Counted from the stretch's first letter, positions 37,888 to 41,914 are shown. The stretch: 64,000 nucleotides of DNA from Escherichia coli (GCF_965641715.1 NZ_OZ282453.1); one strand, 5' to 3'. Numbers and translations: made by a program. Notes: generated by a model from the letters alone, not told the origin.

Positions 37888-37924
37888 GAAATGCAAACAA
37901 CTTCCATCAAAAAAGTGACACAGG
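37888..37924. repeat. 37-bp motif shared with the mpaA upstream region (copy A, upstream of mppA)
   Basis: GAAATGCAAACAACTTCCATCAAAAAAGTGACACAGG; about 31 of 37 positions identical to copy B at 41877..41914. Confidence 0.6.
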
Positions 37925-38167
37925 AAGCATAAAATGTTTTATGTATCAATATATTAAATCAGATTTAGTGTAAATAATAGACGCCAAAATGCGGCAAAGC
38001 ACATAGAACACCGAAGACTACGTTCGGGCTTCGCACGTTCAAACCAGTTTTCGGTATCATAATCAGCATCTGTCGCCATTGTACGAAGAATAAAAAATAA
38101 CCAAAACGTTGAAAGGAACTGAGAATACGTTAAGAGAAGAATTAAATTAATGTATCAGCAAGTAGTG

Positions 38168-39067
38168 CTAAACAGCACCTTTATACTTCAGCCTATCTAT
38201 AAATAATGAGAATGCCGAGCCAGCATGTCGACGATGTGGATAGTACAGGTGATAACCGGGTAAATCTGGTGTGAATTTATCCAAAACACGTATCAGTTTT
38301 TTTTCTTTAATAGCCCGCTCAACCTGATCATAAGGTAGATACGCCAATCCATGCCCATCAATTGCAGCATCAATGATCAGGTCTATCGTATTCAGTAAAA
38401 GCTGACCTTCCATGCGAACACGAACTTCACGTCCACCTCGTATTAATCTCCAGCGATTTGCTGTACCCGATGTGGGAAGATACAAATTAATTGCCTGATG
38501 ATCTATTAATTGTGACACTGACGTTGGAACACTTCGGCGAGAAAAATAATCCGGTGAGCCAACAATAGCCATTGGTATATCTGGCCCGATTCGAATGGCG
38601 ATCATATCTTTATCCATCTCCCCACCCAGACGGACGCCTGCATCAAAACGTTCAGAAACGACATCGGTCAAACCATAATCAATGGTGAGCTGAATATCAA
38701 TTTCAGGATGCGATTTCAGGAATGTGCGCATTGCTGGTAACAATATCGTTTTTGCTGCATGTTCTACAGTAGTAATACGTATTGTCCCGGATGGGCGGTT
38801 CTGCAGATCGCTCAGGGATGTCAGGGCAGAATCTATGTCATGCAACATAGGGCCAAGAACAGACAAAAGATGCTCGCCCGCTTCAGTTGGTACAACGCTG
38901 CGCGTAGTTCGCGTCAGAAGCCGCAATCCCAATCGTTCTTCTATACGGCGCACTATCTGGCTTAAAGCTGACTGCGCCATGCTCAGGCGGGCTGCTGCGC
39001 GAGTGAAGCTACGCTCCTCTGCAACGACGACAAACGCCATCAGATCAGCGATCTCTTCACGCTTCAT
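38168..39067 (-). CDS. ycjZ: LysR-family transcriptional regulator YcjZ
   Basis: 299 aa; N-terminal LysR HTH (FTRAAARLSMAQSALSQIVRRIEERLG). Confidence 0.85.
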   Translation of the reverse strand: MKREEIADLMAFVVVAEERSFTRAAARLSMAQSALSQIVRRIEERLGLRLLTRTTRSVVPTEAGEHLLSVLGPMLHDIDSALTSLSDLQNRPSGTIRITTVEHAAKTILLPAMRTFLKSHPEIDIQLTIDYGLTDVVSERFDAGVRLGGEMDKDMIAIRIGPDIPMAIVGSPDYFSRRSVPTSVSQLIDHQAINLYLPTSGTANRWRLIRGGREVRVRMEGQLLLNTIDLIIDAAIDGHGLAYLPYDQVERAIKEKKLIRVLDKFTPDLPGYHLYYPHRRHAGSAFSLFIDRLKYKGAV

Positions 39068-39192
39068 TCAGTATCTCCATACAATCTATTAATCATTTAA
39101 ATGATAGGTCTAATCATGATTTTGGGTCTAATCAACTTAATGATCAATATCTATAGTGATATCACCAACCGTTAAAACGAACCAACAACTCC

Positions 39193-40125
39193 ATGAGGAA
39201 CGGAATGATGAATAATAAAGTCAGCTTCACTAACAGCAATAATCCAACCATCTCTTTGTCTGCAGTGATCTATTTTCCTCCAAAATTTGATGAAACCCGT
39301 CAATATCCGGCAATTGTGGTATCTCACCCAGGTGGGGGCGTTAAAGAACAAACGGCCGGGACCTATGCCGAAAAACTGGCGGAAAAGGGATTTGTCACTA
39401 TTGCTTATGACGCATCTTATCAGGGTGAAAGTGGCGGCGAGCCGCGTCAGTTAGAAAACCCATACATTCGTACTGAAGACGTCAGTGCCGTGATTGATTA
39501 CCTGACAACGCTTTCTTATGTCGACAATACCCGAATTGGTGCGATGGGAATTTGTGCCGGTGCAGGATATACAGCCAATGCTGCAATTCAGGATCGCCGC
39601 ATCAAGGCCATCGGTACCGTTAGTGCGGTCAATATTGGTTCGATGTTCCGTAATGGTTGGGAAAACAATGTGAAATCTATTGATGCCCTGCCATACGTTG
39701 AAGCGGGTTCAAACGCCAGAACCAGCGATATTAGCAGCGGAGAATACGCCATTATGCCACTGGCACCAATGAAGGAGTCCGATGCGCCGAACGAAGAACT
39801 GCGTCAGGCCTAGGAGTATTACCACACCCCTCGCGCGCAGTATCCAACAGCACCGGGTTACGCTACTTTGCGCAGCCTTAACCAGATTATTACCTATGAT
39901 GCTTACCATATGGCGGAAGTGTACCTGACTCAGCCGACGCAGATTGTGGCGGGCAGCCAGGCAGGGAGCAAATGGATGAGTGACGACCTGTACGATCGGG
40001 CATCAAGCCAGGATAAACGCTATCACATTGTTGAAGGCGCAAACCATATGGATCTTTATGACGGCAAAGCCTATGTGGCTGAAGCAATTTCAGTATTAGC
40101 TCCGTTCTTTGAGGAAACTCTGTAA
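39193..40125 (+). pseudogene. alpha/beta hydrolase (dienelactone-hydrolase-like) interrupted by an in-frame TAG at 39811..39813
   Basis: ORFs 39193..39813 and 39868..40125 are in the same frame and together align along the full length of the downstream paralogue; a single amber codon separates them. Confidence 0.6.
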
Positions 40126-41054
40126 TGAAACATATTCAAATCCGCAATAGTGATATGGCCTGGCATATTGCTGCCAATATTCAGTTTCCACCAAATTTTG
40201 ATGAGTCAAAACAGTATCCGGCGGTTATCAGCGTCCATCCTTTTGGCAGTTGTAAGGAGCAGACGTCTGGCAATATCTATGGCAAGGCATTGGCTGAAAA
40301 AGGCTATGTCGTTCTCGCTTATGACGCCAGTTTCCAGGGAGAATCTGGTGGGGAGCCTCGTTGGATAGAAGATCCGACACAGCGCGTAGAGGATATTAGC
40401 CGTGTTATCGATTATGCAGTAACTCTGCCATATGTTGATGCTGAACGCATTGGCGTGCTGGGTGTGTGTGGGGGGGGTGGCTATGCCATTAATGCCGCGC
40501 TGACAGAAAAACGAATTAAAGCTGTAGTGAGTATTACGGGTGTTAATATCGGGCGTCTTTTTCGGGAAGGTTTCAGCAATTACGATCCGATTGGCGCATT
40601 GAATGCAATGGCGTCGCAACGAACCAAAGAGGCTCGTGGTGGAGAATTACAGATCAACGAATTACTTCCCGCCAGCCTGGATGCAGCAAAAGCCCATGGA
40701 CTGACCGAACGCGATGTTTATGAAGCAACTGACTACTATAAAACACCACGCGGGCAACAACCGGGAGGTGCGACAAAAATGTTGTTCTCACATGCACAGA
40801 AAACGCTGGCCTGGGATGCCTTCGCATTTACTGAAGTGTTACTGACTCAGCCGGTGATGGTAGTAGTTGGTGAAAAAGTCGGTGCCTTCGGTGCTTATCG
40901 TGATGGACTGGAAGTCTATGGCCGGGCGATGGTTTCGCAGGATCGTCAGTTAGTTTCATTACCCGATTTCTCACATTATGAACTGTATGACAAACCGGAA
41001 GCAGTTCAGGAGGCGCTGGAAAAAGTTATTCCTTTTTTCAACACCCATCTGTGA
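40125..41054 (+). CDS. ycjY: alpha/beta hydrolase YcjY-like (intact paralogue)
   Basis: 309 aa; about 55 percent identical by eye to the interrupted upstream copy; TAATG overlap with it. Confidence 0.75.
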   Translation: MKHIQIRNSDMAWHIAANIQFPPNFDESKQYPAVISVHPFGSCKEQTSGNIYGKALAEKGYVVLAYDASFQGESGGEPRWIEDPTQRVEDISRVIDYAVTLPYVDAERIGVLGVCGGGGYAINAALTEKRIKAVVSITGVNIGRLFREGFSNYDPIGALNAMASQRTKEARGGELQINELLPASLDAAKAHGLTERDVYEATDYYKTPRGQQPGGATKMLFSHAQKTLAWDAFAFTEVLLTQPVMVVVGEKVGAFGAYRDGLEVYGRAMVSQDRQLVSLPDFSHYELYDKPEAVQEALEKVIPFFNTHL

Positions 41055-41713
41055 TAAGTTTCATGAGAAATATTATGAAAAATGTACTCATTCTTGGTGC
41101 TGGCGGTCAGATAGCCCGCCATGTGATTAATCAACTGGCAGATAAACAAACCATTAAACAAACTTTATTTGCTCGTCAGCCAGCAAAAATACACAAACCC
41201 TATCCAACTAATAGCCAGATTATTATGGGGGATGTACTGAATCATGCAGCACTGAAGCAGGCCATGCAGGGACAGGATATTGTGTATGCCAACCTTACGG
41301 GGGAAGATTTAGATATTCAGGCAAATTCAGTGATCGCTGCGATGAAAGCCTGTGATGTTAAACGTCTGATCTTTGTTCTTTCCCTCGGCATTTATGATGA
41401 AGTTCCAGGAAAATTTGGCGAATGGAATAATGCAGTTATTGGTGAGCCCCTAAAACCATTCCGCAGGGCTGCGGATGCAATTGAGGCTTCTGGACTGGAT
41501 TATACAATTCTTCGCCCTGCCTGGCTGACTGATGAAGATATTATTGATTATGAGCTTACCTCACGCAATGAACTATTCAAAGGTACGATCGTATCGCGTA
41601 AGAGTGTCGCCGCATTAATCACAGATATCATCGATAAACCTGAGAAACACATTGGTGAGAATATAGGCATCAATCAACCTGGTACTGATGGTGATAAGCC
41701 ATTCTTCATGTAA
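41051..41713 (+). CDS. ymjC: NAD(P)-binding NmrA/SDR-like protein (YmjC-like, intact here)
   Basis: Rossmann motif LILGAGGQIARHV; 220 aa; ATGA overlap with upstream hydrolase. Confidence 0.7.
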   Translation: MISFMRNIMKNVLILGAGGQIARHVINQLADKQTIKQTLFARQPAKIHKPYPTNSQIIMGDVLNHAALKQAMQGQDIVYANLTGEDLDIQANSVIAAMKACDVKRLIFVLSLGIYDEVPGKFGEWNNAVIGEPLKPFRRAADAIEASGLDYTILRPAWLTDEDIIDYELTSRNELFKGTIVSRKSVAALITDIIDKPEKHIGENIGINQPGTDGDKPFFM

Positions 41714-41876
41714 ATCAATTATATAACTACCATCGTACTGTACTATGTGCAGTACGATTTATTAAACTTATTAAGGTGAACTGATCAATCAGATGAGATT
41801 AACATGTGTAGAACCAGTAAGAATAAAATACGCCATGTATATAACATTACGACAATTCTAATATCTGCACATCAAT

Positions 41877-41914
41877 GAAAATGCAAACAACTTCCGGCAA
41901 AAAAGTGATACAAG
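41877..41914. repeat. 37-bp motif shared with the mppA upstream region (copy B, upstream of mpaA)
   Basis: GAAAATGCAAACAACTTCCGGCAAAAAAGTGATACAAG, about 90 nt upstream of the mpaA start. Confidence 0.6.

What the first reader, a model, noticed from the sequence alone, without database searches (positions are those of the whole stretch)
37888..41914. Shared 37-bp motif upstream of mppA and mpaA, two murein-peptide recycling genes
GAAATGCAAACAACTTCCATCAAAAAAGTGACACAGG at 37888..37924 and GAAAATGCAAACAACTTCCGGCAAAAAAGTGATACAAG at 41877..41914 match at about 31 of 37 positions. Both lie in 5' regions of functionally linked genes (MppA binds murein tripeptide; MpaA cleaves it). The motif is on the same genomic strand at both sites, so it is inverted relative to mppA. 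This is a candidate shared operator or promoter element.
Basis: seen in the sequence. Interest (0 to 1): 0.5.

Follow-up and report, generated by a model that had tools for sequence, protein, structure and literature searches.

The report
Integration scar duplicating a shared promoter core
The two 37-bp copies are the duplicated attachment site left when a foreign DNA element inserted into the middle of the old shared promoter region between mppA and mpaA, which left each gene with its own copy of that promoter core.

Summary
The repeat is real: 37889-37925 and 41879-41915 are direct copies, 33/37 identical, with sharp edges and two copies per E. coli genome.

It is not a shared operator. In about 70 other Enterobacteriaceae species and in 174 of 5,426 complete E. 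coli genomes, mppA and mpaA are adjacent and divergent. They are about 180 bp apart with one copy of the motif, at the same distance from each gene.

In this window the copies flank a 3,953-bp insert. It holds a queH relic, pgrR, two hydrolase genes and an SDR gene. Related cassettes sit on conjugative elements and plasmids elsewhere.

Copy 1 plus the next ~78 bp of insert aligns colinearly with phage lambda attP, covering the Int core footprint and the P arm with its IHF H2 site. The copies therefore look like attR/attL of a decayed integrated element. No integrase gene and no P' arm remain.

The 37 bp is also promoter DNA. A published K-12 start site for mpaA lies 6 nt after copy 2, so its extended -10 is inside the motif. 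The predicted mppA -35 is at the other end.

Moderately interesting; a new example of a known kind.

The parts
37889..37925 (+). Copy 1 of the 37-bp repeat, next to mppA. It is attR-like: bacterial sequence on the mppA side and P-arm-like sequence on the inner side.
   Evidence: Searches show the repeat. Searches align it to the lambda Int core footprint 'int 3' (27714-27747). Its right end (C at 37919, G at 37923) differs from the ancestral and copy-2 sequence in all 14 E. coli/Escherichia left copies sampled.
41879..41915 (+). Copy 2 of the repeat, next to mpaA. It is attL-like and identical to the single ancestral copy in locus L004.
   Evidence: Its right end GTGATACAAGA is unchanged in all 18 right copies sampled.
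37892..37897 (-). Predicted mppA -35 hexamer (TTTGCA on the minus strand), inside copy 1.
   Evidence: Consensus scan (TTTGCA-18-AATAAT). The block GAAATGCAAA is 80-99% conserved across 76 intergenic regions. No experimental start site was found.
37865..37879 (-). Conserved block GTAATTATTTGTTTC, which holds the predicted mppA -10 (AATAAT, 37873-37868).
41906..41914 (+). Extended -10 of the mpaA promoter (TGaTACAAG), inside copy 2.
   Evidence: Position relative to the mapped start site. TGAT(A) is conserved across genera.
41921..41921 (+). Published mpaA transcription start site, transferred from K-12 (NC_000913.2 position 1388705, 20 reads).
   Evidence: Kim et al. 2012 Table S1 gives the -50..+1 sequence AACTAATAAAATGCAAACAACTTCCGGCAAAAAAGTGATACAAGATCGATG. 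K-12 is identical to the window over this stretch.
37926..41878 (.). The 3,953-bp inserted DNA that is absent from the ancestral mppA-mpaA intergenic region.
   Evidence: Junction comparison with single-copy loci. The length arithmetic fits: 57+37+88 = 182 bp, against 179-183 bp in empty sites.
37930..38003 (+). Remnant homologous to the lambda attP P arm. It includes an IHF H2-type site TATCAATATATTA at 37944-37956.
   Evidence: BLAST against lambda-type phages at attP gives 76% over 95 bp, E 4e-8. The same match appears. This inner flank alone scores 63 against shuffles of 19.8 +/- 2.8, with 0 of 2000 reaching it. The alignment is colinear with the core alignment.
37978..38070 (-). Internal fragment of a queH (epoxyqueuosine reductase) gene.
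   Evidence: PGAP annotates it as a pseudogene in near-identical E. coli loci. The translation is MATDADYDTENWFERAKPERSLRCSMCFAAFWRLL.
38168..39067 (-). pgrR, a LysR-type regulator.
39205..40125 (+). First alpha/beta hydrolase gene of the cassette, inactivated in this window by a nonsense codon at 39811-39813.
40125..41054 (+). Second alpha/beta hydrolase gene.
41075..41713 (+). NmrA/SDR-family oxidoreductase gene, intact here; K-12 ymjC is its N-terminal remnant.
41785..41878 (.). 94 bp of unknown origin between the end of cassette homology and copy 2. A P' arm would be expected here but none is detectable.
   Evidence: Cassette homology ends at 41784. There is no similarity to lambda attP above shuffles and no phage match.
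36218..37831 (-). mppA.
42004..42732 (+). mpaA.

Best explanation
The two copies are the duplicated attachment-site core left by integration of a foreign element into the centre of the ancestral mppA-mpaA divergent promoter region. Ancestrally the two genes sat back to back, about 180 bp apart, with one copy of this 37-bp module between them. An element whose attP resembled phage lambda's, and which shared about 37 bp with this site, recombined with it. That produced an attR-like junction at mppA (copy 1 followed by a P-arm remnant) and an attL-like junction at mpaA (copy 2). The element has since decayed to 3,953 bp: a P-arm stub, a queH fragment, the pgrR/hydrolase/hydrolase/SDR cargo cassette and 94 bp of unknown origin. 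No integrase gene remains. The module carries the predicted mppA -35 at one end on one strand, and the mapped mpaA extended -10 at the other end on the other strand. Duplication therefore left each gene with a complete core promoter. Today the copies act as promoter DNA, each mainly through the half next to its gene. They are also a 37-bp direct repeat across which the insert could be lost. Shown: the duplication flanks an insertion, the left junction is homologous to lambda attP, and the mpaA start site position is published. Inferred: an integrase did the job, the mppA -35 assignment, and promoter 'reconstitution' as the reason the insertion was tolerated.
For: (1) Empty site. In 75 loci from about 70 species mppA and mpaA are adjacent. 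These include E. albertii, E. whittamii, other Escherichia lineages, Citrobacter, Enterobacter, Klebsiella, Kluyvera, Leclercia and others. The spacer is mostly 174-203 bp. In Escherichia there is exactly one motif copy, 56 bp from the mppA start and about 91 bp from the mpaA ATG, the same distances as copies 1 and 2 here.

(2) Of 5,426 complete E. coli genomes, 174 have an uninterrupted 182-bp spacer, which equals 57+37+88.

(3) The cargo is foreign. Window 38168-41784 is 79% identical in DNA (PgrR 88% in protein) to a six-gene cassette in Klebsiella aerogenes, Salmonella and Raoultella. That cassette sits in unrelated contexts, including conjugative-element genes and plasmids. A queH fragment lies beside it.

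(4) att homology. The motif aligns to lambda's annotated Int core footprint: AATGC---CAACTT-AGTAT-AAAAAAG-CTGA against AATGCAAACAACTT-CCATC-AAAAAAG-TGA. The next ~78 bp align to the P arm, including TATCAATATATTAAAT. In total 87 of 123 aligned columns are identical. The inner flank alone has a z-score of about 15, with 0 of 2000 shuffles reaching it. All 12 phage hits listed (of 25 records) are lambda-type phages, hit at attP wherever the record annotates it.

(5) The two old differences between the copies (37919 and 37923, shared with locus L006) lie on the P-arm side of the predicted 7-bp overlap. That is expected if that side came from attP.

(6) Promoter. The K-12 mpaA start site lies 6 nt after copy 2. 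The module forms two conserved blocks flanked by the least conserved, indel-prone parts of the spacer. In a spread sample the right copies keep GTGATACAAGA in 18 of 18 but carry G>A in the -35-like block in 4 of 18. The left copies keep AAATGCAAAC in 13 of 14 and never have the intact -10.

(7) In strain RM10410 an 11-kb P4-type satellite with its own integrase is inserted inside copy 1. A tyrosine recombinase can therefore use this sequence.
Against: No integrase or excisionase gene lies in or next to the insert. The inner flank of copy 2, where a P' arm is expected, shows no similarity to lambda attP or to any phage. The P-arm homology stops 3 bp before lambda's P2 arm-type Int site, so no arm-type site is preserved. 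No phage or viral contig carrying this core was found. A 37-bp attP/attB identity is longer than lambda's 15 bp. The mppA -35 is only a consensus match at the chance rate for that region (1 found, 0.9 expected). The only published mppA 5' end lies 489 nt upstream inside pgrR. The mpaA start site has 20 reads in one dataset, and it comes from K-12, where a deletion abuts copy 2.
Confidence: 0.75

Rival explanations
1. Shared operator: one transcription factor binds the same 37-bp site upstream of both genes to co-regulate murein-peptide uptake and breakdown.
For: Both copies sit in 5' regions of functionally linked genes. The single ancestral module is conserved across genera beyond what two hexamers need, for example CTT and the A-run. 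A factor binding the ancestral module could have served both genes.
Against: Common descent by duplication fully explains the similarity. The motif has no dyad symmetry. The copies differ exactly in the half that each neighbouring gene does not need. Published PgrR SELEX targets list the ycjY/pgrR spacer, not this motif. A CRP ChIP peak labelled ycjZ/mppA in the literature actually lies at abgA-abgR. No factor is known or predicted for the site.
Confidence: 0.1
2. The insertion carries a 37-bp flanking duplication but no integrase was involved. Possible routes are single-crossover (Campbell-type) homologous recombination of a circular DNA that carried a copy of the module, or repair of staggered breaks. 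On this reading the lambda P-arm stub is unrelated hitch-hiking DNA.
For: No int, xis or P' arm remains. Thirty-seven bp is enough for RecA-dependent recombination (established knowledge). The cassette travels on conjugative elements and plasmids, not phages, elsewhere.
Against: The P-arm homology is colinear with, and correctly spaced from, a core that has lambda's layout: two inverted CAACTT-type sites 3 bp apart around a 7-bp overlap. The old differences between the copies fall on one side of that overlap. A chance juxtaposition of an attP arm with a core-like bacterial sequence is unlikely.
Confidence: 0.13
3. The cassette and both copies are ancestral, and the single-copy arrangement arose many times by deletion between the repeats.
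For: Some E. coli empty sites (CP131_Sichuan type, 4 genomes) have E. coli-type flanks on both sides and a copy that could be a copy1/copy2 recombinant. Phylogroup F strains include both states: IAI39 is empty and SMS-3-5 is occupied.
Against: About 70 species in more than 15 genera are single-copy, and none outside E. coli and one close Escherichia lineage has the insert. The cassette's relatives lie in unrelated, mobile contexts. The insert carries a phage attP arm and a queH fragment, a gene PGAP annotates in these E. coli loci only as that pseudogene fragment.
Confidence: 0.02

Closest known systems
Phage lambda attachment sites (attP, attB, attL, attR; tyrosine integrase Int with IHF, Xis and Fis)
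   Same: Direct repeats of the core flank the inserted DNA, and there is one copy at the empty site. The core aligns to lambda's Int footprint with the same geometry, CAACTTnnn-nnn-nAAAAGnnn. The adjacent inner flank is 76% identical to the lambda P arm, including the H2 IHF site.
   Different: No int or xis gene, no detectable P' arm and no arm-type Int sites remain. The identity segment is about 37 bp rather than 15. The cargo is a metabolic and regulatory cassette, not phage genes. The site is the mppA-mpaA spacer, not gal-bio.
Integrating elements that rebuild the host function they interrupt (recalled from the literature: phage 21 and e14 in icd; P4 and P22-type elements in tRNA gene 3' ends)
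   Same: The element's attachment site carries a copy of the host sequence at the target, so a functional copy is present at the junction after integration. Here both flanking genes keep a promoter core.
   Different: What is rebuilt is a bidirectional promoter core rather than a coding or tRNA sequence. The rebuilding is inferred, not demonstrated.
Back-to-back divergent sigma-70 promoters in a short intergenic region
   Same: The ancestral ~180-bp spacer holds a -35 for one gene and an extended -10 for the other within 37 bp on opposite strands.
   Different: In E. coli the two promoters have been physically separated by 4 kb. Each now sits next to a partly redundant copy of the other's element.
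Transposon target-site duplications
   Same: A direct duplication of target sequence flanks an insertion.
   Different: Thirty-seven bp is far longer than the 2-14 bp typical of transposases (established knowledge). The insert has no terminal inverted repeats and no transposase.
PgrR regulon of E. coli K-12 (Shimada et al. 2013, as summarised in PMC5934670 and PMC9928106)
   Same: It concerns the same genes: pgrR, ycjY-ymjD-ymjC-mpaA and ycjG.
   Different: The reported PgrR target is the ycjY/pgrR spacer, not this motif. The present data show that pgrR and ycjY are inserted DNA, so PgrR control of mpaA followed from the insertion.

Membership tests
attL/attR pair of a tyrosine-integrase (lambda-type) integrated element | Direct repeats flank DNA that is absent from an otherwise identical empty site carrying one copy (attB). 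| tested here: met
   About 70 species and 174 E. coli genomes have one copy and no insert, and the spacer lengths add up exactly.
attL/attR pair of a tyrosine-integrase (lambda-type) integrated element | The core has two inverted integrase core-type sites around a short overlap region. | tested here: met
   Alignment to lambda C'-O-C and to the annotated 'int 3' footprint shows CAACTTCCG-GCA-AAAAAGTGA against CAACTTAGT-ATA-AAAAAGCTG. This is similarity only; binding was not tested.
attL/attR pair of a tyrosine-integrase (lambda-type) integrated element | Arms on the element side carry accessory-protein and arm-type integrase sites. | tested here: inconclusive
   The P-arm homologue with the IHF H2 consensus is present at copy 1. 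It is truncated before the P2 and P1 arm-type sites. No P' arm is detectable at copy 2.
attL/attR pair of a tyrosine-integrase (lambda-type) integrated element | An integrase gene lies within the element, next to one junction. | tested here: not met
   The insert encodes only pgrR, two hydrolases, an SDR and a queH fragment. This fits a decayed element, so the filing is 'scar of', not 'functional att pair'.
attL/attR pair of a tyrosine-integrase (lambda-type) integrated element | Integrase-dependent recombination occurs at the site. | not testable with these tools
   There is only indirect support: a P4-type satellite with its own integrase is inserted inside copy 1 in strain RM10410.
Sigma-70 promoter | An experimentally mapped primary 5' end lies at the right distance from -10 and -35 elements. 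| tested here: met
   For copy 2 and mpaA, the start site maps to window 41921, with TG at -15/-14 and TACAAG at -12 to -7 (Kim et al. 2012 Table S1). For copy 1 and mppA there is only a consensus prediction.
Shared transcription-factor operator | A factor binds both copies and mutation of the site alters both genes. | not testable with these tools
   No factor is reported for this sequence in the papers found. The motif lacks dyad symmetry.
Dispersed repeat family (REP, ERIC, MITE-like) | Many copies occur per genome at unrelated loci. | tested here: not met
   The median is 2 places per E. coli genome, at this locus, and there are 2 in the 64-kb window.
Transposon target-site duplication | A short duplication (2-14 bp) flanks an element that has terminal inverted repeats and a transposase. 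| tested here: not met
   The duplication is 37 bp. No inverted repeats lie at 37926 and 41878 and there is no transposase.

The most novel reading that the evidence does not exclude
The element's attP carried a 37-bp mimic of the host's bidirectional promoter core, so that integration regenerates a working promoter for both flanking genes. This would be the promoter counterpart of tRNA-gene or icd reconstitution. The same event placed mpaA downstream of an acquired regulator and operon. On this reading 'PgrR, regulator of peptidoglycan recycling' is an E. coli-specific by-product of an integration, not an ancestral circuit. The single-copy site in other enterobacteria would still be a usable attB for an unsampled lambda-family integrase.
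Probability: 0.3. Interest if true: 0.6.

Novelty: new member of a known kind. Interest (0 to 1): 0.45.

Why it matters
It changes how a textbook E. coli locus should be read. The genes pgrR, ycjY, ymjD and ymjC are not part of an ancestral murein-peptide gene cluster. They are decaying cargo of an element that split the mppA-mpaA divergent pair.

This explains three things. It explains why most E. coli carry pseudogenised versions, with K-12's ymjC and ymjD as deletion remnants. It explains why 3% of genomes lack the segment altogether. It also explains why mpaA appears both as the last gene of a PgrR-repressed operon and with its own start site.

The locus is a clean natural case for studying how an integration into a bidirectional promoter is tolerated, and how the two duplicated halves then drift apart. 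It also flags a possible attB in many Enterobacteriaceae.

Tried and rejected
- **Chance match:** rejected by the shuffles.
- **Dispersed repeat:** rejected by copy number.
- **Known RNA family in either intergenic region:** nothing near threshold in Rfam.
- **CRP site:** a ChIP-seq table lists a CRP peak as 'ycjZ/mppA' (PMC4287617). The site CGTGAACCGGGTCACA is absent from the window and lies in the abgA-abgR spacer of H10407. It is a labelling error and irrelevant here.
- **Living relatives of the element:** the motif, the core alone and the core/P-arm junction were searched in IMG/VR. There was no phage hit. The junction pattern found only an E. coli fragment (L098), and the P-arm pattern found ordinary lambda prophage attR junctions.
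- **P' arm at copy 2:** not above shuffles and no phage match.
- **Start-site data:** the Cappable-seq, ROSE, Rend-seq and Shigella supplements either are not held or lack these genes. The Thomason dRNA-seq paper is not held. The Shimada 2013 PgrR paper is not held. The RpoD constitutive-promoter list has the ycjY/pgrR spacer only.
- **Reading the CP131-type empty site as a proven copy1/copy2 recombinant:** weakened. Ninety-five further genomes match the 40-mer with one mismatch, and the two inspected (O145 RM9872, SMS-3-5) are insert-bearing with the 'AT' variant in the right copy too.
- **By-eye comparisons with sigma-54, sigma-E, CytR, PurR, FNR and CRP consensus sequences:** these were recalled from memory and gave no convincing match. 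The sigma-54 GG-GC spacing is off by one. They were not pursued.
- **A sigma-70 promoter for mpaA outside the motif (TTGATA-17-AACACT, 41944-41972):** considered first, but the published start site lies upstream of it.

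
Full report
**Observation.** The repeat is present. In ungapped register, 37889-37925 (AAATGCAAACAACTTCCATCAAAAAAGTGACACAGGA) and 41879-41915 (AAATGCAAACAACTTCCGGCAAAAAAGTGATACAAGA) are identical at 33 of 37 positions and lie on the same strand. Similarity ends abruptly on both sides. A 27-specified-base version of the motif occurs exactly twice in the window and never in 100 shuffles at up to 3 mismatches. The window is E. coli, up to 99.5% identical to complete genomes. The gene order is ynaI, mppA(-), pgrR(-), two alpha/beta-hydrolase genes(+), an SDR gene(+), mpaA(+), ycjG(-), tpx, tyrR. Across 5,426 complete E. coli genomes the motif has a median of two places per genome. 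It is therefore not a dispersed repeat family.

**What the two copies flank.** I fetched the mpaA neighbourhood from 80 species-representative genomes and located the neighbouring genes by tblastn. In 75 of these loci mppA and mpaA are directly adjacent and divergent. The loci include E. albertii, E. whittamii, three other Escherichia lineages, Citrobacter, Enterobacter, Klebsiella, Kluyvera, Leclercia, Lelliottia, Trabulsiella and Pluralibacter. The spacer is mostly 174-203 bp. The Escherichia spacers (179 bp) contain the motif once, 56 bp from the mppA start and about 91 bp from the mpaA ATG. Copies 1 and 2 sit at the same distances from their genes in the window.

Side-by-side comparison shows how the ancestral spacer maps onto the window. 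It equals the window's mppA-proximal flank (37832-37888), plus one motif, plus the mpaA-proximal flank (41916-42003). That is 57+37+88 = 182 bp. Homology to the ancestor ends after 37925 on the left and begins at 41879 on the right. The 3,953 bp between (37926-41878) is therefore an insertion, and the 37-mer is the sequence duplicated at its two ends.

**Polymorphism within E. coli.** Of 5,426 complete genomes, 174 have an uninterrupted 182-bp spacer. At least three alleles exist.
- One has a strongly divergent mpaA-side half (wlxctx60).
- One, found in IAI39, CE10 and ST648-type strains, has E. coli-type flanks and its own variants.
- One, found in four genomes including CP131_Sichuan, has a single copy that is copy-1-like at the AT/GG site and copy-2-like at its right end.

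The third allele is what deletion between the repeats would give. It is not decisive, because the AT variant also occurs in right copies: 95 genomes match the diagnostic 40-mer with one mismatch, and the two inspected (O145 RM9872, SMS-3-5) are insert-bearing. Among insert-bearing genomes the cargo is decaying. Only 1,281 genomes keep at least 80% of it. K-12 has two deletions, 40183-41074 and 41214-41877. This window has a nonsense codon in the first hydrolase gene.

**Origin of the inserted DNA.** PgrR has 88-89% identical homologues in Klebsiella, Raoultella, Kluyvera, Salmonella and Citrobacter, including on plasmids. In six loci from three of these taxa the homologue heads a six-gene cassette: regulator, two hydrolases, an NmrA-type SDR, a short-chain dehydrogenase and an OYE-type flavin oxidoreductase. 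Each cassette is embedded in a different context, two of them among conjugative-transfer genes. DNA homology to the window (79%) runs from the pgrR stop codon (38168) to 41784, which is where the fifth gene would start. Between copy 1 and pgrR lies an internal fragment of queH, which PGAP annotates in these E. coli loci only as that pseudogene fragment. The insert is thus composite and of foreign origin.

**The junction is an attachment site.** A sensitive search with the left junction unexpectedly hit lambda-type phages, and only at attP: 76% over 95 bp, E = 4e-8 in a 2.3-Gb phage database. The same hit appeared on lambda-sized records in the plasmid set. Aligning the window to lambda attP in reverse complement shows two things.
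- The motif lines up with lambda's annotated Int core footprint 'int 3' (27714-27747): AATGCCAACTTAGTATAAAAAAGCTGAACGAGAA. It has the same arrangement of a CAACTT-type site, a central segment and an A-run/AAG site.
- The next ~78 bp of insert (37930-38003) line up, without net shift, with the P arm. This includes TATCAATATATTAAAT, lambda's H2 region, which fits the IHF consensus WATCAANNNNTTR as I recall it.

In total 87 of 123 aligned columns are identical. The inner flank alone, with the motif excluded, scores 63 against 19.8 +/- 2.8 for shuffles, and none of 2000 shuffles reached it. Copy 1 with its inner flank is therefore an attR-type junction (P arm, core, bacterial DNA). Copy 2 is in the position of attL, and the single copy in other genomes is in the position of attB.

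This also explains the pattern of differences. With lambda's geometry the 7-bp overlap would be CGGCAAA. The two old differences (T/C at 37919 and A/G at 37923, shared with the insert-bearing Escherichia locus L006) lie on the P-arm side of it. On that side, copy 1 should carry element-derived sequence and copy 2 bacterial sequence. The AT/GG difference inside the overlap is younger. L006 has GG in both copies, and some E. coli have AT in both.

**What is missing.**
- No int or xis gene is present.
- The P-arm homology stops 3 bp before lambda's P2 arm-type site.
- The 94 bp inside copy 2 resembles neither lambda's P' arm nor any phage.
- No phage or viral contig carries this core.

I therefore file it as the scar of an integration, not as a functional att pair. 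I keep open a rival in which a circular DNA carrying the module integrated by homologous recombination.

One observation shows that a tyrosine recombinase can use this sequence. In E. coli RM10410 an ~11-kb P4-type satellite is inserted inside copy 1. It encodes a 412-aa integrase, an Icd-like protein, a P4-family primase, SSB and a protease/capsid fusion. Its junctions are GTCACTTTTT|GGATG... and ...CTTCTT|TGATGGAAG. In 82 other genomes the same satellite sits elsewhere.

**The motif as promoter DNA.** An alignment of 76 single-copy spacers shows five conserved blocks separated by poorly conserved, indel-prone stretches. The duplicated 37 bp corresponds to the two central blocks, GAAATGCAAA and (A)AAgTtGATA. 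The insertion breakpoints fall in the variable stretches on either side.

On the mppA strand a consensus scan pairs TTTGCA (37897-37892, inside copy 1) with AATAAT (37873-37868, in the conserved block GTAATTATTTGTTTC) at 18-bp spacing. This is only a prediction, and one such match is expected by chance in that region.

For mpaA there is experimental evidence. Kim et al. 2012 (PMC3415461, Table S1) list a primary 5' end for mpaA in MG1655 at 1388705 with 20 reads. The -50..+1 sequence is AACTAATAAAATGCAAACAACTTCCGGCAAAAAAGTGATACAAGATCGATG. K-12 is identical to the window here, so the start site is window 41921, 6 nt after copy 2. That puts TG at -15/-14 and TACAAG at -12 to -7, an extended -10 inside the motif. 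The cross-genus conservation of TGAT(A) fits this.

The two old differences in copy 1 fall at -12 and -8 of that hexamer. Copy 1 is therefore unlikely to fire toward pgrR.

In a spread sample of E. coli, the right copies keep GTGATACAAGA in 18 of 18 but carry G>A in the -35-like block in 4 of 18. The left copies keep AAATGCAAAC in 13 of 14 and never carry the intact -10. The A-run between the two elements varies in length. The sample is small, but the pattern is what one expects if each copy is maintained through the half that serves its neighbouring gene.

**Mechanism proposed.**
- Shown: a 37-bp duplication flanks a foreign insert, the left junction is lambda-attP-like, and the mpaA start site lies just after copy 2.
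- Inferred: an integrase-mediated event between an attP that shared ~37 bp with the host site; the mppA -35 lying in the motif; and the duplication being what allowed both genes to keep a promoter, and hence the insertion to persist.

A consequence follows from published work. PgrR is reported to repress ycjY-ymjD-ymjC-mpaA (PMC5934670; PMC9928106). The data here show that this link exists only because the regulator and its operon were dropped in front of mpaA.

**Comparison with known systems.** The locus works like, and is homologous to, lambda-type attachment sites. It fails the membership feature 'integrase present' and is inconclusive for the arms. It resembles elements that rebuild the gene they interrupt, except that here a bidirectional promoter core would be rebuilt. 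It is not a transposon target duplication: the length is wrong and there are no inverted repeats. It is not a repeat family. I found no paper describing this locus as an integration site, but the library is incomplete.

**Verdict.** The finding is a new example of a known kind of feature and is of moderate interest.

Noticed in passing
window 39811-39813: The first alpha/beta-hydrolase gene of the cassette carries a nonsense codon (TGG>TAG, G>A at 39812) relative to the intact 306-aa gene in strain E2865. The cassette is being pseudogenised in this strain too.
   Followed up: yes
L095 (K-12 MG1655); window 40183-41074 and 41214-41877: K-12 differs from the window by two deletions. The second ends exactly at the left edge of copy 2, so the annotated K-12 ORF ymjC reads through the motif (...NKMQTTSGKKVIQDR*). 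ymjC and ymjD are deletion remnants of the SDR gene and the second hydrolase gene.
   Followed up: yes
L107 (E. coli RM10410) 16150-27340; L098: An ~11-kb P4-type satellite is integrated inside copy 1, between pgrR and mppA. It encodes an integrase, an Icd-like protein, a P4 primase, SSB and a ClpP-protease/major-capsid fusion. In 82 other genomes it sits elsewhere, next to a phage terminase gene.
   Followed up: partly
L024 4847-8001 and L026 4561-8001 (Salmonella enterica subsp. arizonae and diarizonae): The same mppA-mpaA spacer holds a different 3.1-3.4-kb insert with three lipoprotein-like ORFs (255-283 aa). There is no duplication of the module, and the mppA-proximal conserved blocks have been lost. 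This is an independent hit at the same spacer.
   Followed up: partly
window 41935-41951 and 41960-41973: Two further blocks, GGAAACTATTTGATTA and the nearly invariant TTTTGCACAACACTG, are conserved across about 70 species. They lie downstream of the mapped mpaA start site, in its 83-nt 5' UTR. Their function is unexplained and there is no Rfam match.
   Followed up: partly
window 37865-37879: GTAATTATTTGTTTC upstream of mppA is almost invariant across genera over about 13 nt. That is more than a -10 hexamer needs, so it may hold an additional site.
   Followed up: no
L096 (ETEC H10407) 1018-1033: The CRP ChIP-seq site listed as 'ycjZ/mppA' in PMC4287617 (CGTGAACCGGGTCACA, peak 1541732) actually lies in the abgA-abgR spacer. 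The gene label in that table is wrong.
   Followed up: yes
K-12 NC_000913.2 position 1390762 (inside pgrR, 489 nt upstream of mppA): The only 5' end assigned to mppA in Kim et al. 2012 lies within the pgrR coding region (6 reads). Some mppA transcription may therefore start inside the inserted DNA and read through copy 1.
   Followed up: no
L057 44-7882: In one species representative (labelled Citrobacter sp. 18056) a 2,612-aa ORF ends 118 bp upstream of mpaA, and mppA is absent from the 8 kb upstream. Only the mpaA-proximal conserved blocks survive.
   Followed up: no
L003 4139-7126 (E. coli MDR_56); L114 327-1024 (E. coli E1620): There are IS-mediated changes at the locus. In MDR_56 an IS421 replaces the mppA 5' end, copy 1 and the whole cassette. 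In E1620 an IS1 is inserted between mppA and pgrR.
   Followed up: no
L005, L008, L012 (other Escherichia species), between ynaI and mppA: About 3.2 kb of extra DNA separates ynaI from mppA in these lineages, against 50 bp in E. coli.
   Followed up: no
L108 (O157:H7) copy 1; L110 and L115 copy 2: The A-run in the middle of the motif varies in length and sequence between strains (AGAAA, A7, AAATAAA). This changes the spacing between the -35-like and -10 parts.
   Followed up: partly
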